This document shows, in pieces, positions 8,594 through 64,000 of a DNA stretch of 64,000 nt (position 1 is its first letter; each line of letters starts with the position of its first letter). The stretch comes from an uncultured Bacteroidales bacterium (GTDB lineage: Bacteria > Bacteroidota > Bacteroidia > Bacteroidales > JAADJA01). The stretch lies in contig CAVVMO010000004.1 in the NCBI GenBank assembly GCA_963749345.1, forward strand, positions 2,986,588-3,050,587, given 5' to 3'. The translations under genes and the position numbers were made by a program. The notes under the pieces were generated by a model. The model worked only from the letters and a program-made list of their open reading frames with translations. It searched no databases and was not told the origin of the DNA.

Positions 8594-11109
8594 ATGAAAA
8601 AATTATTACTTATTACCTGCGGTTTAGCGATAGCGGCAGTAGTGGAAGCACAGATTATCCATGTGCCGGGCGATTATCCCACGATCCAGCAAGGGATTGA
8701 TGCTGCAAACACCGGCGATACCGTTTTGGTCGACCCGGGAACCTATCTGGAAAATATTTACCTCAATAAGAATATTACTCTTTCCTCACTTTACCTGACC
8801 ACTCTGGATACTTCCTTTATATCTCAAACCATCATTGATGGGTGTCATATTAGCCATGTAATAAATATAGTATTTCCTGTTGATACAAATTGCTTTATTA
8901 CAGGTTTTACGATCACAAATGGATATACTGAATATTTGGGTGCCGGAATTATCTGTTCGGGGGCATCCCCTGTACTAAGTTACCTGGTCATTAAGAATAA
9001 TCACGCAGAATATGGGTATATGAGTTATGATGGCGATGGTGGTGGTATTGGATGCGGTATTTATAGTATTACTCCAGGGGGATATACATATTCCTTTCCA
9101 AGGATAAGACATGTCGAAATTTCGGGTAATACTTCTGATGGAGCTGGTGGCGGATTGTACGCCGGTGGAGGTCATACCTATATGGAAGATGTAACATTCC
9201 ATGACAATAGCGGTGGCTGGAACGGAGGTGCAATATATATAGCCATAGGAGATGTTGGCGGTCTTAGCATGAAAAATATTAAAGTGTTTAATAATATTTC
9301 TTATGGAAGCATCATTCACTTGCTTTTTTTGGGATGAAACTTGCAATATCAATTGAGAATGTGACCGTTAATGATAATTCTGGAAATGCTTTTATTATGG
9401 ATACTTATGATGAACCAGGTAGTTTAAATTTGAACCATGTTATTCTTGAAAACAATGCCGGATTCGGATTGCAGTCAAATGGGGTAAACCTGAATTTAAG
9501 CGATGTGAGCATTCATAATAATGCAGGAGGTCTTATCAACGATGACGGAGAGATTGTTTTTGATACCCTTGAGCGATGCAGCATTTATAATAATTTTATT
9601 GGTTACAATAAGGAAATTGCAAGCAATGTTCCGATAGAGGTAGTGCTCGATACCTTTACGGTTCTCAATCCTACTTCATTTCATGTTGATACGCTGCCGA
9701 ACTTTTCATTCGACATTTTGCACGGATTATACGGGCAGATAAACGCTGACGTTTATGTTTCGCCTTCGGGTGATGATTTTAATAGCGGAATCACTCCTAA
9801 TGAACCGTTAAAAAGGATTGTTTGCGCTCAGGCAAGATTGCTCAGCCCCCATACAATTTATCTTGCCGGTGGCAACTACAGTTCATTATTGACAGGTGAA
9901 AATTTTCCCGTCATGTTATTGGATAGCCTCAACCTGATCGGTGTGTCTTCATCTGATGTGGTGATGGACGGTTCAGGGAATACTCTTTTGAAAATCAAAA
10001 ATAACAGCTATAATAACGTGTCAGGATTAACATTAACGGGCGGGGAACGTGGCATCTGGATAGAGAATTCAAATCCTTCGATTGAAGATGTTCATATAAC
10101 AAATAATTCCAATCAGTATAAAGGTGGAGGAATATATTCAACTGGTTCTAATCCAATTCTAAAGGACATTTTTCTTGAAGGAAATTCAGCGACTAATGGA
10201 GGCGGACTTTACTTTACCGAATCATTACCAACGCTGCGTAACCTCACAATAAAAGAAAATTCGGCAGATTGCGGTGGAGGAATATACTTTTTCGGATCCG
10301 ATCCATTCATTATGAACCTAAATATAATTCAGAATACGGCGTATAAGGGCGGGGGTATCTTTTTTAATAATTCTGATCCGTTTATCTGTAATTCAATCCT
10401 GGCTGATAATATTGCTACCAATTGGGGAGGAGGTATTTGCGGAGGAGGCGGATCATATATTCGGTTATCAAATTCAATTTTATGGAATAACGATGTTAAT
10501 CAAATTGCCCTCGTTGGAATTTATGGTGGTATAAATACTATAGAAATATCTTATTCAGATATCGAAGGTGGTGAAGAAGGGATTTATATATCAGGCACAG
10601 GGGCGGTAAACTGGCTGGAAGGCAATATGGTTGAAAATCCTCTCTTTGCAGTAAGCGGAGAACATCCATATGCCTTATCAGATGGATCACCATGCATCGA
10701 TGCTGGTATACCAGATACCACAGGCCTGAACCTTCCTTGCGAGGATATCATAGGTAATAAGCGTATCTGGGATGGAGACGGGAATGGAATCGCGGTTGTG
10801 GATATGGGAGCTTATGAGTTTGGATCGATACCGGTGGGAGTGAAAGAACCTCAAATATCAGTTCAGAGCCCGGAGTTTGAAGTTCGATGTTATCCAAATC
10901 CAACTCATAATAAAATAACCATTGAGTTATCTGCAATAACCAGTATTACCCAACTTTCAATATTCAATGTTAACGGCAAGAAAGTATTGGAAAGGCAGCT
11001 AACAGATAACGAAACCCAACTCGACATCAGCGCACTGCCACGGGGAGTGTATTTTGTGAGGGTGCAGGATGAGAAGAAAGTAGAAGTTGTAAAAATGATA
11101 AAACAATAA
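8594..11109 (+). pseudogene. Right-handed beta-helix (pectate-lyase-fold-like) repeat protein with T9SS CTD; frame break at a T7 tract
   Basis: ORFs 8585..9337 and 9334..11109 are joined if T7 (9324-9330) is read as T8: ...SIIHLLFFGMKLAISIENV. GGGIY/GGGLY repeats. CTD LSIFNVNGKKVLERQL...GVYFVRVQDEKKVEVVKMIKQ. The likely start is ATG 8594 (MKKLLLITCGLAIAA). Confidence 0.75.
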
Positions 11110-11251
11110 GAAAGAAAGGGATATAATTTGATTTTGGTTGAAATAAATTGAAATAAATGGAATTAAGGGTATAGAGGACATTCGGGGAATAGATGTGAAA
11201 ACTCCATGCTCCAAGCCCCATGCTCCATGCATTAATTTAAAATTAAAACCT

Positions 11252-13150
11252 ATGAAAAATTTATTACTTATTACCTGCGGCTTAGCGATAGCGGCTGCAG
11301 TTCAGGCACAGATCATCCATGTTCCCGCCGATTATCCCACGATCCAGCAAGGGATTGATGCAGCAACCAACGGCGATACCGTGTTGGTATCGGACGGTAC
11401 GTATTACGAACAAATCAACTTCCTTGGCAAAAAGCCGCTGATGGTGGCTAGCGAATTCCTTACGGACGCTGATACTAATCATATCGCCAGTACCATTATC
11501 GATGGAAGCCAGTTGACTAATTTGGACAGCGCTTCGGTGGTGTATTTTGTTTCAGGGGAGGATTCTACATCAATCCTCTGTGGATTCACCGTACGGAATG
11601 GAAAAGGTACCTATACAACTGATAATTATAACGACCGGCAAGGCGGAGGTATATGGATTTCAAATGCAGGTGCAAAGATCATTCACAACAGGATCACCCA
11701 CAATACAGTTGATGATACACAGCCAGGAAACGGAGAAAGTACTTGCGGAGGAGGAATAGGGGCAAAATATGGTATGGGTAACTATTGGATTGTAATAGCT
11801 GACAATACGATTGACAGCAATTCCTGCATTTCAACGAATGAATATGCTCAGGGGGGAGGAATATTCTTAAGTTACAACACCAGGATCATCCATAACATTA
11901 TCTCTTATAACAGCGGTAGAGGCTACCAAAGCGCACAATTGTGGGGCGGTGGAATTTATGTTGCAGGATGGCCCAATACTATTGCAATTATTGAAGAAAA
12001 CACCATCACCAACAATACTACGAAAGGACTGGTCAATACTTGTTCGGCCGGGGTGGAATGTGCTAATGTTAAGGTTATATTTTCGGACAATTTGGTTGCC
12101 GATAATACAATAAAGCCGGGTGGTAATGGTGGAGGGGCAGGTTTTCTTTTATATCAGCCAAGGGCCGGGAGTGTATTCAGTAGAAATATTTTCAGAGATA
12201 ATGTAAGTAATGTTGGGATAGGTGGAGGAATGCTTGTTCAAACGAACTCAGCTTTTGTCATCAATACTGTTCTTTTTGAAAATAATTACTTCATTAATAA
12301 TGTGGCACCAGGTGGCGGTGCATTTTGCATTTTAAGCAACCCGGTTTTATTACAGAATAATGTTTTCACAGGTAATCAGGCAACAGGTTCTGGAGGGGCT
12401 TTGTATCTCGATAATAATTTAAATCTGCAAATGGAACATTTTGCCATACTGATCAACAATTCATTTTATGATAATGATGCCAATGGCGCTGGCGGAGCAA
12501 TATGCTCAATTAAAGCGAAGCCTTTGATTTTCAACTCAGTATTTTGGAGCGATAGTGCCAATAATGGTCAGGAAATCTTTATCGTTACGAATGATACAGC
12601 CGAAATAGCATACAGCAATATTAATGCTGATTATGTAAACGGCTATATGTACGATGGAGGCGGAAACATTAACGAAGACCCGTTATTTGAAGATCTTGAA
12701 TTACTTTCATTATCACAAAACAGCCCTTGTATTAATACCGGAACAGCAGAATATATCTGTCATTGCAACAGTTTATATACTGCTCCGGCTTACGATATAC
12801 TTGGAAATCTTCGTCCGCTAAACGATTATTTTGAAATGGGCGCATATGAAAGGCTAATTACGGGAATTGATTATAAGCTTTCCAATAAAACTAAAGATTG
12901 GCATTCTGTCTATCCCAATCCTTTCACCGGCGAGGCAAGGCTCAGTTATGAACTTGACAAGAAAACACAGGTAGAGATCAACCTTTACAACAGCAGTGGA
13001 GAGCTGATTCAAACATTGCTTTCAGAACAGCAGGAGGCAGGTAACCAAGAACTGCAATTCAGTTCCGGCAATTTACCGGCAGGAATTTATTTTTATCGCA
13101 TCACAACCGATTCAAAACAGGCAACAGGGAAAATGATTTTACTAAAATAA
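11252..13150 (+). CDS. Right-handed beta-helix repeat protein with T9SS CTD
   Basis: The likely start is ATG 11252 (MKNLLLITCGLAIAAAVQAQIIHVPADYPTIQQGIDAA), about 85% identical to the N-terminus of 8594... GGGI(Y/F/W) repeats. CTD ...AGIYFYRITTDSKQATGKMILLK. Confidence 0.85.
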   Translation: MKNLLLITCGLAIAAAVQAQIIHVPADYPTIQQGIDAATNGDTVLVSDGTYYEQINFLGKKPLMVASEFLTDADTNHIASTIIDGSQLTNLDSASVVYFVSGEDSTSILCGFTVRNGKGTYTTDNYNDRQGGGIWISNAGAKIIHNRITHNTVDDTQPGNGESTCGGGIGAKYGMGNYWIVIADNTIDSNSCISTNEYAQGGGIFLSYNTRIIHNIISYNSGRGYQSAQLWGGGIYVAGWPNTIAIIEENTITNNTTKGLVNTCSAGVECANVKVIFSDNLVADNTIKPGGNGGGAGFLLYQPRAGSVFSRNIFRDNVSNVGIGGGMLVQTNSAFVINTVLFENNYFINNVAPGGGAFCILSNPVLLQNNVFTGNQATGSGGALYLDNNLNLQMEHFAILINNSFYDNDANGAGGAICSIKAKPLIFNSVFWSDSANNGQEIFIVTNDTAEIAYSNINADYVNGYMYDGGGNINEDPLFEDLELLSLSQNSPCINTGTAEYICHCNSLYTAPAYDILGNLRPLNDYFEMGAYERLITGIDYKLSNKTKDWHSVYPNPFTGEARLSYELDKKTQVEINLYNSSGELIQTLLSEQQEAGNQELQFSSGNLPAGIYFYRITTDSKQATGKMILLK

Positions 13151-43121: not shown

Positions 43122-43841
43122 ATGAAAAAGTTAGGAAAGTTAATTTTAGTATCAGTTATTATTGCAGTTATGACTAATTGCGCACCGAAAGGAGAACAAA
43201 GTAAAGACGAAGGCTGGGTGCCTTTGTTTGATGGAAAGACCGCAGAGGGCTGGCGGAGTTATGGAAAAGAAACCTTCCCCGAAAAAGGCTGGTTGATTGA
43301 AGAGGGTGTATTGCATGTTCAGGGTTCAGGAAAGGGTGAAGCCGGCGGTGGTGGCGACATCATTACCATGAAAAAGTATAGCAATTTCGAGTTGTCGCTT
43401 GAGTGGAAAGTCTCGGAAGGCGGCAACAGCGGTATCTTTTACCTTGTGCAGGAAAAGCCGGACCAGGAAATCTGGAAATCGGCGCCGGAAATGCAGATAC
43501 TGGACAATGCGAAGCATCCCGATGCAAAGCTGGGTGTGGATGGTAACCGTGCAGCCGGTTCGTTGTACGACCTCATTCCCGGGAAATTTGAGGCGGTGAA
43601 GCCTGCCGGCGAATGGAACCAAGTGAAGATCATGGTTTACAAAGGAACCGTTGTCCACTGGATGAACGGCGAGAATGTGCTGGAATACCACCTGTGGACC
43701 GACGACTGGAAGAAGATGGTTGCCAACAGCAAGTTTAAGGATTATCCTGATTTTGTGAACCCCGCACAGGAGGGTTACATCGGCCTGCAGGACCATGGCG
43801 ATGATGTGTGGTTCAGGAGTATTAAGATAAGGGAACTGTAG
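43122..43841 (+). CDS. DUF1080 (3-keto-disaccharide hydrolase-like) lipoprotein
   Basis: Lipobox VIIAVMTNC. GW..L..GKT..GW. GGNSGIFY. GYIGLQDHGDDVWFRSIKI. Confidence 0.8.
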   Translation: MKKLGKLILVSVIIAVMTNCAPKGEQSKDEGWVPLFDGKTAEGWRSYGKETFPEKGWLIEEGVLHVQGSGKGEAGGGGDIITMKKYSNFELSLEWKVSEGGNSGIFYLVQEKPDQEIWKSAPEMQILDNAKHPDAKLGVDGNRAAGSLYDLIPGKFEAVKPAGEWNQVKIMVYKGTVVHWMNGENVLEYHLWTDDWKKMVANSKFKDYPDFVNPAQEGYIGLQDHGDDVWFRSIKIREL

Positions 43842-43853
43842 GTTTTTAAGATC

Positions 43854-44069
43854 ATGAATTGTATTATTTTTGTAAAAAAATTGGACATGCTTACAAAGAA
43901 AAAAGTAAATAAAACCATCAAAAAACTGCCTGATACTTTTACGATTGATCAGTTGATTGATGAATTGATCTTTATTGAAAAGGTGGAGGAAGGGTATCAG
44001 CAATCAGAGGCCGGTAAAGTAGTTTCAAATGAGGATTTGAAATTAATGATTGATAAGTGGTCAAAATAG
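43854..44069 (+). CDS. Putative antitoxin partnered with a ParE/RelE-type toxin
   Basis: Small ORF whose stop overlaps the start of the ParE-like frame. Family not recognised. The start may be ATG 43887. Confidence 0.45.
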   Translation: MNCIIFVKKLDMLTKKKVNKTIKKLPDTFTIDQLIDELIFIEKVEEGYQQSEAGKVVSNEDLKLMIDKWSK

Positions 44070-44356
44070 TTTGGACTGAGGTTTCGATCCGGGACAATAA
44101 GGAAATATTTGATTACATTGCAGACGATTCTGTCCGCTAATCTGCGCTTACAGTCCATAAAATTTATCAAAAGGTTCAGCCACTCACTCATAATCCTTTT
44201 ATTGGCAGGATAGTTCCTGAATTTAACGAAAAATTAATAAGAGAAGTAATCGAAGGTAATTACAGAATAATTTACAGGTTAAAAAAAGATAACCAAGTAG
44301 ATATTTTAAGAGTTTACCATTCAGCCCGATTATTGAAACAGAACAAAATTAAATAA
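44057..44356 (+). pseudogene. ParE/RelE-family toxin with in-frame TAA at 44138-44140
   Basis: (V)VKIVWTEVSIRDNKEIFDYIADDSVR-stop-SALTVHKIYQKVQPLTHNPFIGRIVPEFNEKLIREVIEGNYRIIYRLKKDNQVDILRVYHSARLL. The whole length is in one frame. Not in the ORF track because of the stop. Confidence 0.7.
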
Positions 44357-44527
44357 CCCAGATGCTGGCGAGCTTGCTGCTCGTGCCATGCAAGACATTG
44401 GGATTAATAGCGATATTTGCGGAGTGAGGCAGAACGAAATAAAACCAGGCTCTATTCAGGGTTATCCGGCTAAGGGTGGTTGGATAGGCTGGGAAGAGAA
44501 AGGGGGATGAAGGAGGTAGAGCTCATT

Positions 44528-45214
44528 ATGAGAAACATTAAAATTGGAATATTACTTTTCTGTATGATTTTGATGATTTGTTGTAATCAAAAAAATGGAG
44601 ATAGTTCTACTAATTCCGATATAGAAGTATGGGATTCAGTAAAGAGTTCAACAAATCATTATGATTACTTACGTTTCATGATAAACCATGCAGATTCAAG
44701 GTATTTTGATACTGCATTAATAAGATATTTTAAATACCAGGAAATATTATTTGACTCCATAGGTCCGCCAATGGTGGATTGTTTCGATAGATGCATAAGT
44801 GTAATAATTACAAAATCTGATTCAATATTGTTTGAGCATGAACCGATTCTATTTGGTGATTTAAACAAAAAATCCCTTTCATATTTGATAAATGAAAATA
44901 ATTATGAATGGATGCCTGAACAAAAATTAGTAAAAGATAAAAACGGATTAGAAAGATACGTTTCGAATGGCTACTTTTATTTGCAAACAGATTTAGAATC
45001 AAATTATAAATTGAAACAAGGTATAAATGAAATTAAATTAGCCTATAAAAATTACAAGAATTATCTTTCAGAGAAATGGTTTAGAGTGAAGTTTGACAAA
45101 TTGGATCCTGACAATAAAGAACTTATTGATAATCTGGTAAGACAGAGGATTAAAATAGGAAAATACTATAAAATTATTTTAGTTGAAGAAGATATTAACG
45201 GAATTAATACATGA
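44528..45214 (+). CDS. Hypothetical lipoprotein, AT-rich
   Basis: MRNIKIGILLFCMILMICC lipobox. Visibly lower GC than the flanks. Bracketed by imperfect direct repeats at 44364-44396 and 45233-45267. Confidence 0.55.
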   Translation: MRNIKIGILLFCMILMICCNQKNGDSSTNSDIEVWDSVKSSTNHYDYLRFMINHADSRYFDTALIRYFKYQEILFDSIGPPMVDCFDRCISVIITKSDSILFEHEPILFGDLNKKSLSYLINENNYEWMPEQKLVKDKNGLERYVSNGYFYLQTDLESNYKLKQGINEIKLAYKNYKNYLSEKWFRVKFDKLDPDNKELIDNLVRQRIKIGKYYKIILVEEDINGINT

Positions 45215-45306
45215 ATAACGAGCTCTACCGTCGCTGGCGCGTACTTGTAGCTCGTGCCATGCAAGACGAACTTAGATCTATAATAGCATCTTATAAAAGA
45301 TAATCT

Positions 45307-46146
45307 GTGAAACACCTCGCCCTATTTGCCCTGCTATCCATCCTGCTATCCTGTTCTCAACCGGTTCAAAAGCCAAAAGCCGCCGCGAATGATACCTGGC
45401 GCACAGAAGTTGTAAGACCGGATTTCCGGCAAATCCTCGACTCGGCAAATGTGGAGAGTTCGGTTTTGGTTTACGATCTTCAGAGCGATACAGCATATTC
45501 AAACGACTTTACCCGTTGCGATATGGGTTTTTTACCGGCATCCACGTTTAAAATACCCAATTCGATCATTGCATTGGAAACAGGCCTGGTGGAAGACGAC
45601 AGCACCTTGTTTAAATGGGATGGCGAAAAACGAAGGCTTCCTGTCTGGGAGCAGGATTTGATTTTCAGGGATGCCTTCCAGTTCTCGTGCGTACCTTGTT
45701 ACCAGGAGATAGCCAGGAAAATAGGAGTGGAGCGGATGAAAGAATACCTTGCCAAACTCAACTACGGGAACATGGTTGTTGACTCAGCCACCATTGACCT
45801 TTTCTGGCTCGAAGGCGAGTCAACCATTACGATGAACCAGCAACTTGATTTCCTGAAACGGTTTTACTATTCCGAATTACACATATCCGAAAGAACCTAT
45901 GAAATAATGAAACGCCTGATGCTGATAGAATCAAATGATTCATGGAAATTCAGCGGTAAAACGGGCTGGGCAATCAGGAACGGGAACAACATTGGTTGGT
46001 TCGTCGGCTATCTCGAAAAAGGAAACAAAGTATATTTTATCATCACCAACATTGAACCCAATGAAGCCTTCAACATGGATTTGTTCCCGAAGATCAGGAC
46101 GCAGATTTCACTCGGTGCATTCAGAAAACTGGGTTTGATTGAATAA
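45307..46146 (+). CDS. Class D (OXA-type) beta-lactamase, lipoprotein signal
   Basis: The class D motifs are present in order: S-T-F-K (PASTFKIPNS), S-x-V (SCV), YGN, FWLEG, K-T-G (GKTGWA). GTG start, LLSC lipobox. Confidence 0.85.
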   Translation: MKHLALFALLSILLSCSQPVQKPKAAANDTWRTEVVRPDFRQILDSANVESSVLVYDLQSDTAYSNDFTRCDMGFLPASTFKIPNSIIALETGLVEDDSTLFKWDGEKRRLPVWEQDLIFRDAFQFSCVPCYQEIARKIGVERMKEYLAKLNYGNMVVDSATIDLFWLEGESTITMNQQLDFLKRFYYSELHISERTYEIMKRLMLIESNDSWKFSGKTGWAIRNGNNIGWFVGYLEKGNKVYFIITNIEPNEAFNMDLFPKIRTQISLGAFRKLGLIE

Positions 46147-61942: not shown

Positions 61943-61988
61943 GGCTCAGTTGGTAGTCCCGCCTTTGGCGGGATACCAAGCTAAGGGT
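61943..61988 (+). pseudogene. Truncated tRNA-derived unit (unit 0)
   Basis: GGCTCAGTTGGTA-G-TCCCGCCTTTGGCGGGA-TACCAAGCTAAGGGT. A D-loop fragment, an acceptor-like hairpin and a degenerate anticodon-arm 3' part. Confidence 0.6.
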
Positions 61989-62000
61989 AATAGATTTAAA

Positions 62001-62073
62001 GCGGGAATAGCTCAGTTGGTAGAGCATTAGCTTCCCAAGCTGAGGGTCGCGGGTTCGAGTCCCGTTTCCCGCT
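62001..62073 (+). tRNA. tRNA-Gly (anticodon CCC)
   Basis: Hand-folded 73-nt cloverleaf: GCGGGAA/TTCCCGC acceptor, GCTC-AGTTGGTA-GAGC, TTAGC-TTCCCAA-GCTGA, variable loop GGGTC, GCGGG-TTCGAGT-CCCGT, discriminator U. Confidence 0.9.
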
Positions 62074-62086
62074 CAAAAGAATAAAA

Positions 62087-62112
62087 GGCTTACAATGATG
62101 TAGGCCTTTTTT
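62087..62112 (+). terminator. Rho-independent terminator after tRNA-Gly
   Basis: GGCTTACA-ATGA-TGTAGGCC plus T6. Repeated after units 1 and 2 (62210-62235 and 62336-62361). Confidence 0.7.
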
Positions 62113-62122
62113 GTTTTTCCCA

Positions 62123-62194
62123 GGCTCAGTTGGTAGTCCCGCCATGGCGGGATCCCAAGGTGAGGGTCGCGGGTTCGAGTCCCGTTTCCCGCTC
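62123..62194 (+). pseudogene. tRNA-Gly-derived pseudo-unit 1
   Basis: GGCTCAGTTGGTA-G-TCCCGCCATGGCGGGA-TCCCAAGGTGAGGGTCGCGGGTTCGAGTCCCGTTTCCCGCTC. No 5' acceptor strand, and the D-stem 3' half and anticodon-stem 5' half are replaced by a hairpin. Confidence 0.75.
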
Positions 62195-62251
62195 AAAATT
62201 GGAAAGAAAGGCTTACAATGATGTAGGCCTTTTTTGTTTTTTCCCTATGCC

Positions 62252-62320
62252 CAGGTGGTAGTCCCGCCTTTGGCGGGATCCCAAGCTGAGGGTCGCGGGT
62301 TCGAGTCCCGTTTCCCGCTC
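62252..62320 (+). pseudogene. tRNA-Gly-derived pseudo-unit 2
   Basis: CAGGTGGTAGTCCCGCCTTTGGCGGGATCCCAAGCTGAGGGTC... with a 3' 42 nt identical to the tRNA. 126-bp period to unit 3. Confidence 0.75.
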
Positions 62321-62377
62321 AAAATTGGAAAGAAAGGCTTACAATGATGTAGGCCTTTTTTGTTTTTTCCCTATGCC

Positions 62378-62446
62378 CAGGTGGTAGTCCCGCCTTTGGC
62401 GGGATCCCAAGCTGAGGGTCGCGGGTTCGAGTCCCGTTTCCCGCTC
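62378..62446 (+). pseudogene. tRNA-Gly-derived pseudo-unit 3
   Basis: Identical to unit 2 over the tRNA-like part. Followed by a different terminator (62459-62487). Confidence 0.75.
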
Positions 62447-62487
62447 AAAAGAAAAGAAAGATCTGTTTAATGACAGGTCTTTTTTTG

Positions 62488-62559
62488 CTCAGTTGTTAGT
62501 CCCGCCTTTGGCGGGATCCCAAGCTGAGGGTCGTCCCGCTGAGGCGGGATTTCCCGCTC
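62488..62559 (+). pseudogene. tRNA-Gly-derived pseudo-unit 4 (T arm also replaced)
   Basis: ...TCCCGCCTTTGGCGGGATCCCAAGCTGAGGGTC-GTCCCGCTGAGGCGGGAT-TTCCCGCTC. A second TCCCGC/GCGGGA hairpin sits where the T arm should be. Terminator at 62573-62600. Confidence 0.7.
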
Positions 62560-62711
62560 TCAATGATGACAAGGGTTTGCTGGATTTAGCAAACCTTTTT
62601 CGTTTTAAGTGGATACATATTTGGATACATGAAAACCTGTTTACATTGGTTGTTAATATCTTTTTTTATCTTTGAAGTTGACTATTTTACAATTTCTAAA
62701 TTTTATTGATC

Positions 62712-63662
62712 ATGTCTGAAAAAATTACATTTATCCTTGGTGCGGGGTCAAATAAGGATTATGGTTTTCCACTTGGGTTTGATTTATATAAAATGACGAT
62801 TAAGGATTTAGAAAATTTAAATACAGAAGAAGAAGAGAAGAGTGAATTATTTAAAATATTGAGGCATTTTAATTTAATAATGCATATTGATGTATTTAGG
62901 AATAAGCTGGAGGGTTCTCAATTTAGCTCATTAGATGAATTTGTTTATCATTATCCAGAATATGAAAAAATTGTAAGATACATAATAAGCTATTATATAA
63001 TTTGGTATGAGGATAATTCTAAACTCTTGGAACTTAGTAACGAAAATCATTGGTATCGGTCTTTTTGGAAAAATATTAAAACTTACAACTTTGAAGATTT
63101 ACCGAAAGGAAAATATGGATTTATTACTTTTAATTATGATCGATCATTAGAGGCTTATTTTACAGAAGTTATGTATAATACATATTTTAACCAAATTAAA
63201 AAAGATCGATTTGAGATTTATAATTTACTGAATGATTATTTCCCTATTTACCATGTTTACGGGCATTTGGGAAAGTTATATGCAAATGGTCGTAATAGTT
63301 TTGAGTATGGAGCTAAACGAAGTGCAAGCGAAAGTATATTAAGAAGTAACTTTGTTGATAAAATAAATTTTGCTTCTCGTCAAATTGAATTAATATTTTC
63401 AAAGAGGCAAGAAAAACCAGAACTTCAAAAAATCTTTAAAAGGTTAGAAAATTCAGATAAAATAATTTTTTTGGGATTTGGATTTGATGATCTTAACCTT
63501 GAAAATTTAAAAATAAAAGAATTAAATAAAACAAAAATTGGTTATGTTAGAGGGTTATCTACTAAAAGAGTAAAACAACTTAAATCAATTTATAATATAA
63601 ATTGTAATACAATTCATATTGATAATATTGTGGAATATTTGAAAAGGATTGAGATTATTTAG
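62712..63662 (+). CDS. SIR2-like (SIR2_2 family) domain protein, stand-alone about 316 aa
   Basis: ITFILGAGSNKDYGFPLG (Rossmann GAG), GFITFNYDRSLE (compare the TTNYD motif), IYHVYGHLG, IIFLGFGFDDLNL. Strongly AT-rich. Confidence 0.65.
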   Translation: MSEKITFILGAGSNKDYGFPLGFDLYKMTIKDLENLNTEEEEKSELFKILRHFNLIMHIDVFRNKLEGSQFSSLDEFVYHYPEYEKIVRYIISYYIIWYEDNSKLLELSNENHWYRSFWKNIKTYNFEDLPKGKYGFITFNYDRSLEAYFTEVMYNTYFNQIKKDRFEIYNLLNDYFPIYHVYGHLGKLYANGRNSFEYGAKRSASESILRSNFVDKINFASRQIELIFSKRQEKPELQKIFKRLENSDKIIFLGFGFDDLNLENLKIKELNKTKIGYVRGLSTKRVKQLKSIYNINCNTIHIDNIVEYLKRIEII

Positions 63663-63683
63663 CATTTTAAAATTAGTTCCATA

Positions 63684-64000
63684 ATGAAAAAACTACTTTC
63701 TGATTTTTTAAATTTGTTTACGCCTTACAATAAAATTGAAGTTCATTTCTGGTGGATTATAATTCTAATTATTTTACTCTTGACCTTGGTTATTGCGTAT
63801 TCTATCTATTTTGCCTTAAAAGAAAGGAATAAAGAATTATCAAAGAAAGATTTAGCAAGAAAAAAATTGATCTCTGAGATAAGGAATTTTAAATTATTTT
63901 GGTTAACACCGAGTTTAAGTTTAGCTACCACAGTTGTTGTTGCAATAGTAGGGTGGCGATCAGGCTTTTTTGAGACAAATTTGAAGTTAATAGAGATTAA
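63684..64000 (+). CDS. Membrane protein of unknown function, 3' end outside the window
   Basis: ATG 63684, 21 nt after the SIR2-like stop codon. Open to the window end. TM helices FWWIIILIILLLTLVIAYSIYFAL and LSLATTVVVAIVGW. Not in the ORF track because there is no stop codon. Confidence 0.5.
   Translation, partial: MKKLLSDFLNLFTPYNKIEVHFWWIIILIILLLTLVIAYSIYFALKERNKELSKKDLARKKLISEIRNFKLFWLTPSLSLATTVVVAIVGWRSGFFETNLKLIEI

What the first reader, a model, noticed from the sequence alone, without database searches (positions are those of the whole stretch)
62601..64000. AT-rich island next to the tRNA array opens with a stand-alone SIR2-like protein plus a membrane protein: candidate defence module, cut by the window end
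**Composition**
Immediately after the tRNA-derived array the composition drops to a visibly much lower GC than the rest of the window.

**First ORF (62712-63662)**
- It carries the hallmark blocks of the SIR2_2 family: a GAGS Rossmann start, a TFNYD block, an HxxGH block and an FLGFGFDD block.
- At about 316 aa it has no fused sensor domain (no SLOG, TIR, STAND, pAgo or HerA domain).

**Second ORF (63684 to beyond 64000)**
- It starts 21 nt downstream and encodes a protein with at least two TM helices and a charged linker.

**Interpretation**
- SIR2 domains are NAD+-depleting effectors in several anti-phage systems (Thoeris ThsA, DSR, SIR2-HerA, SPARSA).
- I do not recognise a short SIR2 paired with a small membrane protein as one of the named architectures.
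- The position, tRNA-adjacent and compositionally foreign, fits a defence island.
- The system is incomplete in this window, so partner genes are unknown.
Basis: partly seen in the sequence, partly recalled or inferred. Interest (0 to 1): 0.7.

Follow-up and report, generated by a model that had tools for sequence, protein, structure and literature searches.

The report
Stand-alone SIR2 gene in variable slot
A small low-GC islet next to a tRNA gene carries a short, sensor-less member of the immune-type SIR2 (NAD-degrading) enzyme family. It also carries an unrelated, very rare membrane protein, and related genomes show the two are separate swappable cassettes rather than a new two-gene defence system.

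Summary
GC is 25.8% in 62601-64000 against 41.2% elsewhere (z -5.4). ORF1 (62712-63662, 316 aa) passes Pfam SIR2_2 and carries the four reported motifs. ORF2 starts 21 nt downstream and has two TM helices.

ORF1 models confidently (pLDDT 91) as one SIR2 domain. It is closest to the immune SIR2s (SIR2-HerA, KomC, SPARSA, ThsA, DSR2). Its family of about 300-350 aa was found in at least 433 species and in phage contigs. It has no conserved neighbour and always has lower GC than its flanks.

The SIR2 plus membrane-protein pairing is not supported:
- ORF2 (304 aa in full) belongs to a family of only six known proteins.
- In sister contigs the same tRNA-adjacent slot and promoter carry either a 41%-identical SIR2 allele with only a 22-codon ORF2 remnant, or the ORF2 homologue with no SIR2.
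- The islet is about 2 kb and probably ends just after ORF2.

Caveat: the canonical catalytic His position is Tyr183 in ORF1. An invariant His181 lies two residues upstream.

Most likely ORF1 is an autonomous single-gene NAD+-depleting defence candidate. This makes it an uncharacterised variant of a known kind, of moderate interest.

The parts
62001..62074 (+). tRNA-Gly(CCC), the only intact tRNA. It anchors the variable slot.
   Evidence: ARAGORN. Rfam tRNA 70.3 bits. 97-100% identical in sister contig L084.
62124..62565 (+). Four tRNA-derived repeat units of about 113-126 nt, each with a hairpin terminator. They are context only, not part of the SIR2 gene. The last unit (62487-62565) is a variant whose T-arm is replaced by a second hairpin.
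   Evidence: the repeat finder families D1-D5. The same units lie upstream of the slot in L081, L084 and L085.
62571..62598 (+). Terminator-like hairpin that closes the tRNA array and separates it from the ORF1 transcription unit.
   Evidence: scan_promoters_terminators.
62599..62711 (+). Conserved promoter and leader region of the slot. It contains a Bacteroidota-type -7 box, TATCTTTG (TAnnTTTG), at 62667-62674.
   Evidence: 77-90% identical to L084. The TATCTTTGAAGTT block is present in the window, L084 and L085, whichever gene follows. Promoter function is inferred from the known Bacteroides consensus, not tested.
62712..63662 (+). ORF1, a 316-aa single-domain immune-type SIR2 (SIR2_2) protein. 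Family-invariant residues are G10 A11 G12, N141 Y142 D143 R144 S145, H181, G184 and G255. The canonical HG histidine position is Y183.
63684..64000 (+). ORF2, the first 105 of 304 codons, cut by the window end. The full protein has two TM helices, a long coiled coil and a C-terminal helical domain. It is a separate cassette and belongs to a very rare family.
   Evidence: 304-aa product, 21 nt downstream. (P0041 full length). (6 proteins in 5.8 billion). (all-helical model, pLDDT 63). No Pfam, PADLOC, NCBIfam or PHROG assignment.

Best explanation
ORF1 is an autonomous, single-domain member of the immune-type SIR2 clade (Pfam SIR2_2, the 'SIRim' group). It is most likely a single-gene abortive-infection effector.

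**Proposed mechanism (inferred by analogy with ThsA, DSR2, KomC, Avs5 and FAM118B, not shown here)**
- The protein is kept inactive until phage infection.
- It is then switched on, probably by oligomerisation or filament formation or by a phage-derived ligand.
- It consumes NAD+.

**Genomic setting (shown)**
- ORF1 sits in a strain-variable cassette slot of about 2 kb, directly 3' of the tRNA-Gly array.
- The slot is driven by a conserved promoter.
- ORF2 shares the slot but is an unrelated, very rare membrane/coiled-coil gene.
- The two genes are co-located and probably co-transcribed here, but they are not an obligate functional pair.
- SIR2 alleles appear to be exchanged between conserved flanks. 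These flanks are the promoter plus the first 22 codons on one side and the start of ORF2 on the other (the exchange is inferred).
For: **SIR2 identity**
- Pfam SIR2_2 scores above the gathering threshold.
- A 34-sequence family alignment has invariant GAG, NYDRS, H181 and G255.
- The AF2 model has pLDDT 91.1 and pTM 0.91.
- The top Foldseek hits are all immune SIR2s: E. coli SIR2 of SIR2-HerA (2e-6), KomC (9e-5), SPARSA (3e-4), ThsA (7e-4) and DSR2 (1e-3). They rank ahead of the canonical sirtuins (2e-3 or weaker).
- The best PDB sequence match is KomC.

**Autonomy**
- 433 genomic loci were found.
- No neighbour family occurs in more than 6 of 80 loci.
- Tightly adjacent genes are often housekeeping: aaRS and LeuRS, LpxB and PriA, GidA, TruA.

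**Accessory or defence character**
- GC is lower than the flanks in 63 of 63 loci, by 9 points on average.
- Some immediate neighbours are Mrr, IetA, AAA_21, DUF4238, PIN_8 or a SIR2 paralogue.
- Thirteen viral contigs encode relatives, and several of these sit beside terminase, primase or methyltransferase genes.
- Bonhomme et al. (bioRxiv 10.1101/2024.09.18.613514) report that the neighbourhoods of bacterial proteins in the clade that holds all known antiphage SIR2s are 12-fold enriched in defence systems, relative to the sirtuin clade.

**Slot variability**
- L081/L084 carry a SIR2 allele with 41% aa identity behind the same tRNA units and promoter, and ORF2 there is reduced to 22 codons.
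- L085 joins the same promoter directly to the ORF2 homologue (69% identity), with no SIR2, and ends at a terminator.
- The identity profile between the window and L084 is:

| Segment | DNA identity |
|---|---|
| Flanking gene | 75-95% |
| tRNA | 97-100% |
| First 60 nt of SIR2 | 95% |
| Rest of SIR2 | 45-65% |
Against: - No experiment exists for this family.
- There are no hits to curated NCBIfam models, and only weak hits to PADLOC SIR2 models (ORF1 E about 1e-3; best family member 6.5e-10).
- The canonical catalytic His is H206 in FAM118B and H146 in KomC, directly before the Gly. That position is Tyr183 in ORF1, and it is Tyr in 76 of 112 family members.
- NADase activity would therefore have to rely on the invariant H181, which is untested.
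- No sensor domain or trigger can be named.
- Most immediate neighbours are not defence genes.
- The slot comparison rests on short metagenomic contigs (1.2-3.2 kb).
Confidence: 0.55

Rival explanations
1. ORF1 and ORF2 form a new two-gene defence system in which the membrane protein senses or executes and SIR2 depletes NAD+.
For: - The gap between the genes is 21 nt, they are on the same strand, and no terminator lies between them.
- The identical pair is seen on an independent 2256-nt contig.
- ORF2 has weak, sub-threshold resemblance to KwaA (E 0.003) and SLATT_1 (E 0.32) membrane modules.
Against: - No ORF2 homologue lies within 6 kb of any of 80 SIR2-family loci.
- The ORF2 family has only 6 members in 5.8 billion proteins, against at least 433 SIR2 loci.
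- L085 has ORF2 without SIR2.
- L081/L084 have SIR2 with only a 22-codon ORF2 remnant.
- Four ORF2 relatives lack the first TM helix.
Confidence: 0.08
2. ORF1 is a SIR2-fold enzyme with a chemistry other than bulk NAD+ hydrolysis. Candidates are ADP-ribosyl transfer to a protein or nucleic-acid target, or production of a signal. It could act as a toxin or as a phage/MGE competition factor.
For: - Tyr occupies the canonical catalytic His position in about two thirds of the family, while His181 is invariant, giving the motif H-x-[Y/H]-G.
- Relatives are encoded by phages next to packaging and replication genes.
- From background knowledge, SIR2-fold enzymes include ADP-ribosyltransferases (the SirTM class, SIRT4/6). 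This was not tested here.
Against: - The NAD-pocket motifs GAGxS and TxNYD are fully conserved.
- All of the closest solved structures are NADases of defence systems.
- No target or partner is evident.
Confidence: 0.2
3. ORF1 is a decaying or catalytically inert passenger gene, or a housekeeping sirtuin-like deacylase, with no role in defence.
For: - Tyr183 replaces the canonical His.
- Many homologues sit between housekeeping genes.
- The slot contains pseudogene remnants in relatives.
Against: - ORF1 is an intact ORF, with 15 invariant positions across relatives that share only 24-44% identity, which implies purifying selection.
- The match is to Pfam SIR2_2, not to the sirtuin family SIR2, and there is no Zn-ribbon (only one Cys in the protein).
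- The family is patchy (433 of 185,579 species) and always compositionally foreign. This is unlike a housekeeping gene.
Confidence: 0.12

Closest known systems
KomC, the SIR2 NADase of the Kongming system (PDB 8zsf, 9xvc)
   Same: - It is a short SIR2-only polypeptide (264 aa).
- It is the best PDB sequence match to the family profile (E 2e-4), with Foldseek E 9e-5 and TMt 0.59.
- It shares the GAGxS, TxNYDR and F-[IL]-G-[FY] blocks.
   Different: - KomC works in a complex with KomB and is activated by dITP made through KomA (PMC13454610 abstract).
- No such partners lie next to ORF1 or next to its homologues.
- KomC has the canonical HG histidine (H146), where ORF1 has HVYG.
SIR2 of the SIR2-HerA (Nezha) system (PDB 8sub, 8uae)
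   Same: - It is the top structural match (Foldseek E 2e-6).
- It is an immune-type SIR2 fold.
   Different: - It is about 400 aa and obligately paired with the HerA ATPase.
- No conserved neighbour of any kind was found in the ORF1 family.
- TM-scores are only 0.44-0.49.
DSR1/DSR2 (defence-associated sirtuins)
   Same: - They are single-gene SIR2 defence systems that deplete NAD+.
- The DSR2 SIR2 domain is a structural match (E 1e-3).
   Different: DSRs carry large C-terminal sensor domains that bind phage proteins. Their size of about 1000 aa is from background knowledge. ORF1 is 316 aa with no extra domain.
ThsA of type I Thoeris
   Same: - It has a SIR2_2 domain.
- It is a structural match (8bto, E 7e-4).
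- It is activated by filament formation.
   Different: - ThsA has a C-terminal SLOG sensor and needs the TIR protein ThsB.
- Neither is present here.
FAM118A/B (vertebrate immune-type sirtuins)
   Same: - They are stand-alone SIR2_2-type proteins of similar size.
- They share the H-x-H-G motif seen in about a third of this family (FAM118B LHIHG).
- They form filaments and process NAD (PMC12700824).
   Different: - They are eukaryotic.
- The sequence match is only marginal (E 0.4-0.7).
- FAM118B uses H206, the residue before the Gly, which is Tyr in ORF1.

Membership tests
SIR2_2 / immune-type SIR2 ('SIRim') superfamily | Match to the Pfam PF13289 model above its gathering score | tested here: met
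   26.6 bits against a cutoff of 24.5, E 7e-6, residues 137-266. PF13289 is also precomputed for about a third of the homologues.
SIR2_2 / immune-type SIR2 ('SIRim') superfamily | Rossmann-type SIR2 fold with an N-terminal GAGxS NAD-binding loop and a TxNYD motif | tested here: met
   The AF2 model has pLDDT 91. All Foldseek hits with E below 1e-3 are SIR2 domains of defence systems. G10 A11 G12 and N141 Y142 D143 are invariant.
SIR2_2 / immune-type SIR2 ('SIRim') superfamily | Catalytic His immediately preceding a conserved Gly (HG: H146 in KomC, H206 in FAM118B) | tested here: inconclusive
   ORF1 has H181-V-Y183-G184. The canonical position is Tyr (76 Y, 31 H among 112 family members), while His two residues upstream is nearly invariant. 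No residue-level structural superposition was possible.
SIR2_2 / immune-type SIR2 ('SIRim') superfamily | NAD+ glycohydrolase activity and phage protection | not testable with these tools
   Requires biochemistry and phage challenge.
Thoeris (ThsA/ThsB) | SLOG (or Macro) sensor domain fused to SIR2, with a TIR-domain ThsB neighbour | tested here: not met
   ORF1 is a single domain of 316 aa with only the SIR2_2 hit. ORF2 has no TIR hit. No conserved neighbour exists across 80 loci.
SIR2-HerA (Nezha) | Adjacent HerA-type ATPase gene | tested here: not met
   The downstream gene is a 304-aa TM/coiled-coil protein with no Pfam domain. Upstream lies the tRNA array. No partner recurs in the homologues' loci.
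Kongming (KomABC) | [quoted passage not shown] | tested here: not met
   No such genes are in the slot in the window, L081/L084 or L085. No partner recurs in the family.
DSR1/DSR2 | Large C-terminal sensor region fused to the N-terminal SIR2 | tested here: not met
   ORF1 ends at residue 316, and the model is one compact domain.
SPARSA / SIR2-APAZ with short pAgo | APAZ domain fused to SIR2, with an adjacent short pAgo gene | tested here: not met
   No APAZ or pAgo hit for ORF1 or ORF2. Only weak Aga_SIR2 model hits in 4 of 34 family members.
   0 of 80 loci have an ORF2 homologue nearby. L085 has ORF2 alone and L081/L084 have SIR2 with an ORF2 remnant.

The most novel reading that the evidence does not exclude
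A minimal, sensor-less SIR2 family with a shifted active-site signature, H-x-[Y/H]-G, may be a fully autonomous single-gene anti-phage NADase, or another NAD-consuming effector. It would spread as a one-gene cassette among bacteria, an archaeal MAG and phages. In this lineage it would sit in a tRNA-adjacent slot where highly diverged alleles are swapped by recombination between conserved promoter/5' and 3' anchors. If so, sensing and activation must be built into the SIR2 domain itself, for example through infection-triggered filamentation.
Probability: 0.35. Interest if true: 0.55.

Novelty: new variant of a known kind. Interest (0 to 1): 0.35.

Why it matters
- **Mechanistic question.** In every characterised SIR2 defence system the NADase is coupled to a sensor or partner: SLOG, HerA, pAgo, STAND, the DSR C-terminal domain, or KomA/B. 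A widespread family of about 310 aa with neither would raise the question of how a bare SIR2 domain is kept off and then switched on. It would also be a compact model for that question.
- **Active site.** The Tyr/His alternation at the canonical catalytic position gives a clear mutational test.
- **Locus variability.** The locus shows a small cassette slot at a tRNA array where defence-type alleles turn over far faster than the flanking core genome.
- **Negative result.** The proposed SIR2 plus membrane-protein system should not be catalogued as a new two-gene architecture.

Tried and rejected
- **ORF2 fragment in the word-indexed protein search.** No hit at all. The index-free search then recovered the full protein and 3 relatives.
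- **Family assignment of ORF2.** Pfam, PADLOC, NCBIfam and PHROGs gave only sub-threshold TM or coiled-coil noise, including KwaA at 0.003 and SLATT_1 at 0.32. These were rejected as assignments.
- **Structure of ORF2.** The AF2 model has pLDDT 63, and Foldseek gave no PDB match with E below 0.3. This was uninformative.
- **Contig extension beyond 64000.** The source genome was not returned. A 2256-nt contig with identical genes gave gene positions but no DNA. Several JGI contigs likewise had no DNA.
- **Metagenome scan with the last tRNA-derived unit.** It found only one contig, L084.
- **tRNA-derived unit and tRNA 3' half in viral contigs.** No match, so there is no evidence for a phage attP origin.
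- **ORF1 against GenBank phages by tblastn.** No match. IMG/VR did give 13 distant relatives.
- **tRNA adjacency as a general family feature.** Only about 3 of 60 loci have a tRNA within 1.2 kb. Rejected as a family trait.
- **Rfam sub-threshold hits in the array.** Phe_leader and CRISPR-DR58 were judged to be chance.
Full report
**1. The observation**

The last 1.4 kb of the window is a real compositional outlier.
- GC is 25.8% in 62601-64000 and 41.2% in the rest of the window.
- This is lower than any of 612 sliding 1400-nt windows elsewhere (minimum 31.8%; z = -5.4).

- ORF1 runs 62712-63662 on the + strand and encodes 316 aa.
- It contains GAGS (residues 10-13), TFNYD (139-143), HVYGH (181-185) and FLGFGFDD (253-260).
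- ORF2 starts at 63684, 21 nt after the ORF1 stop.
- Its 105 visible residues hold two hydrophobic helices separated by a charged linker.

The 'tRNA array' upstream is one intact tRNA-Gly(CCC) at 62001-62074. It is followed by four tRNA-derived repeat units with terminator hairpins.

**2. What ORF1 is**

Domain and family searches give the following.
- Pfam gives a single hit, SIR2_2 (PF13289), just above the gathering score (26.6 against 24.5 bits).
- NCBIfam has no family for it.
- PADLOC SIR2 models match only at E about 1e-3. For other family members the best value is 6.5e-10.
- A protein search found 40 relatives, mostly 290-370 aa.
- Their alignment has invariant G10 A11 G12, D75, E100, W114, N141 Y142 D143 R144 S145, H181, G184 and G255.

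The structure model agrees.
- The alignment-based AF2 model is confident (pLDDT 91.1, pTM 0.91).
- It is a single Rossmann-type domain with a helical insertion of about 110 residues between strand 1 and strand 2.
- The best Foldseek matches are the SIR2 subunits of defence systems: E. coli SIR2-HerA (2e-6), KomC (9e-5), SPARSA (3e-4), ThsA (7e-4) and DSR2 (1e-3).
- These rank ahead of the canonical sirtuins, at 2e-3 or weaker.
- The best sequence match among solved structures is KomC, with marginal matches to FAM118B.
- ORF1 contains a single Cys, so it has no sirtuin Zn-ribbon.

ORF1 is therefore a genuine, minimal, immune-type SIR2 domain protein.

**3. A caveat on the active site**

- In KomC (H146) and FAM118B (H206; PMC12700824) the catalytic His directly precedes a conserved Gly.
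- The HMM alignment to FAM118B (LHIHG) places ORF1 H181 on the first His and Y183 on the catalytic one.
- Of 114 family sequences, 112 carry H-x-x-G. Its third residue is Tyr in 76 and His in 31, while the first His is nearly invariant.
- The Asn/Asp of TxNYD are intact.
- H181 may be the functional base. No residue-level superposition was possible with the tools.

**4. Is there a conserved partner?**

A scan of one genome per species found 433 loci that encode a relative. Eighty were fetched with 10-kb flanks.

| Test on the 80 loci | Result |
|---|---|
| ORF2 fragment against all neighbours within 6 kb | No credible hit (best E 0.02) |
| All-against-all clustering of neighbours | No family in more than 6 loci; those few come from closely related Roseateles/Mitsuaria genomes |
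| Immediate same-strand neighbours | Often housekeeping, with a minority of defence-type genes |
| GC of the SIR2 gene against its flanks | Lower in 63 of 63 loci, mean -9 points |

- The housekeeping neighbours include a class II aaRS and LeuRS (L004), LpxB and PriA (L012), GidA (L027) and TruA (L033).
- The defence-type neighbours are Mrr, IetA, AAA_21, DUF4238, PIN_8 and a second SIR2.
- Thirteen IMG/VR viral contigs encode relatives. In several, the gene sits as an opposite-strand insert beside terminase, primase/helicase or methyltransferase genes.
- Distant relatives also occur on Agrobacterium and Rhizobium plasmids.

The family therefore behaves as a self-contained, horizontally moving single gene.

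**5. What ORF2 is**

- An index-free search with the 105-aa fragment recovered the full 304-aa protein (P0041) and three relatives.
- A profile search of 5.8 billion proteins found only six members in all.
- Four of them (231-269 aa) lack the first 44 residues, that is, TM1.
- No Pfam, PADLOC, NCBIfam or PHROG family applies.
- The model is all-helical: two TM helices, a coiled coil of about 75 residues and a C-terminal helical bundle. Confidence is low (pLDDT 63) and there is no structural match.

**6. The slot**

Three kinds of related contig show the same place in sister genomes.

| Contig(s) | Content of the slot after the tRNA units and promoter |
|---|---|
| L081, L082, L084 | 333-aa SIR2 allele (41% aa identity); 22-codon remnant of the ORF2 5' end; a 127-aa lipoprotein; a 45-aa ORF resembling the ORF2 N-terminus; then a terminator or other small genes |
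| L085 | The ORF2 homologue (P0045, 69% identity, 305 aa) directly after the promoter, with no SIR2; ends at the hairpin that closes the islet in L081 |
| 2256-nt contig with genes identical to the window | 250 nt after ORF2 with no further gene called |

- L084 also carries the same upstream outer-membrane-type gene and the same tRNA-Gly as the window.
- The promoter block includes TATCTTTG, a match to the Bacteroides -7 consensus TAnnTTTG. That consensus is from background knowledge.
- The contig of the closest SIR2 relative (P0002, 46% identity) has a different 220-aa gene downstream.

The DNA identity profile between the window and L084 is:

| Segment | Identity |
|---|---|
| Flanking gene | 75-95% |
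| tRNA | 97-100% |
| Promoter | 77-90% |
| First 60 nt of SIR2 | 95% |
| Rest of SIR2 | 45-65% |

- The first ~30 nt of ORF2 are again conserved.
- This mosaic pattern is best explained by cassette or allele replacement between conserved anchors. That is an inference.
- SIR2 and ORF2 each occur without the other, so they are independent cassettes.
- In the window genome the islet is about 2 kb and most likely ends just beyond ORF2.

**7. Mechanism proposed**

*Shown*
- Fold, motifs, single-gene autonomy, foreign composition, presence in phages, and slot variability.

*Inferred*
- ORF1 is transcribed from the conserved slot promoter, with ORF2 co-transcribed in this genome.
- The protein is held inactive and, on infection, is activated and consumes NAD+, causing abortive infection.
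- Activation is most plausibly by oligomerisation or filament formation, as in ThsA, KomC, Avs5 and FAM118B (abstracts listed; PMC12700824).
- The trigger is unknown.
- The helical insertion (residues about 11-122) is the only region that could act as a built-in sensor.
- I put about 0.55 on this overall reading. The structural and genomic parts are much firmer than the functional part.

**8. Rivals**

| Rival | Confidence |
|---|---|
| The two-gene SIR2 plus membrane system, largely refuted by the slot variants | about 0.08 |
| A SIR2-fold enzyme with different chemistry, suggested by the Tyr/His alternation | about 0.2 |
| An inert or housekeeping protein; argues against this: strong motif conservation at 24-44% identity, patchy distribution and foreign composition | about 0.12 |

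**9. Comparison with known systems and novelty**

- ORF1 passes membership of the SIR2_2 / immune SIR2 superfamily. The position of the catalytic His remains inconclusive.
- It fails the defining features of Thoeris, SIR2-HerA, Kongming, DSR and SPARSA, namely the required partners or fused domains.
- It is not covered by PADLOC v2 or NCBIfam models.
- Literature searches found no description of a short stand-alone SIR2 defence gene.
- Bonhomme et al. note that many bacterial immune-clade SIR2 proteins fall outside the known systems.
- I therefore rate it a new variant of a known kind, of moderate interest (0.35).

Noticed in passing
window 61944-62565 (also L084 and L081:1-245): The 'tRNA array' is one real tRNA-Gly(CCC), preceded by a pseudo-unit at 61944-61988 and followed by four units of about 126 nt. 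In these units the anticodon arm is replaced by the hairpin TCCCGCC-TTTG-GCGGGA, and each has its own terminator. In the last unit the T-arm is also replaced by a hairpin. The number of units differs between relatives: four after the tRNA here, two in L084. No match was found in viral contigs, so an origin as att-site relics is unproven.
   Followed up: partly
window 63684-63815; L081:1412-1479 and 1914-2051; L084: The first ~44 residues of ORF2 (MKKLLSDFLNLF..., TM1) recur in sister contigs as separate short ORFs or remnants, for example MKQLISDFIHLFLPNDETEVYSW... (45 aa). They are absent from four of the six ORF2-family proteins. ORF2 therefore looks like a fusion of a small TM-peptide module with a coiled-coil protein of about 230 aa.
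   Followed up: partly
L048, L052, L054, L059, L065, L069 (Roseateles/Mitsuaria), about 11000-12010: In this clade the SIR2 homologue is followed after 14-18 nt by a 314-335-aa DUF4238 protein (Pfam E 6.5e-23). This is the only recurrent tight pairing seen in the family. From background knowledge, DUF4238 proteins have themselves been reported as a defence gene.
   Followed up: no
L042:9983-11896: Two SIR2-family paralogues lie in tandem, 48 nt apart.
   Followed up: no
L090, L092, L093, L094, L097 (IMG/VR viral contigs): Relatives of ORF1 (24-28% identity) sit inside phage genomes next to terminase large subunit, primase/helicase or DNA methyltransferase genes. In three of these contigs (L092, L093, L097) the gene lies on the opposite strand to the phage genes checked, moron-like.
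   Followed up: partly
family-wide; window 63252-63263: The active-site signature of the family is H-x-[Y/H]-G (76 Y, 31 H of 112) with the first His nearly invariant. Characterised immune SIR2s have the His directly before the Gly.
   Followed up: partly
window 43700-46146: This is the second-lowest-GC stretch of the window (about 32%, 43.8-45.2 kb). It holds a 244-aa hypothetical protein (44480-45214). Immediately after it is an ORF (45307-46146) with an STFK motif that resembles class D (OXA-type) beta-lactamases.
   Followed up: no
L027:9288-9989: An IS200-like Y1 transposase overlaps the start of the SIR2 homologue by 4 nt, and GidA lies downstream. This hints at one route by which the single gene moves.
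   Followed up: no
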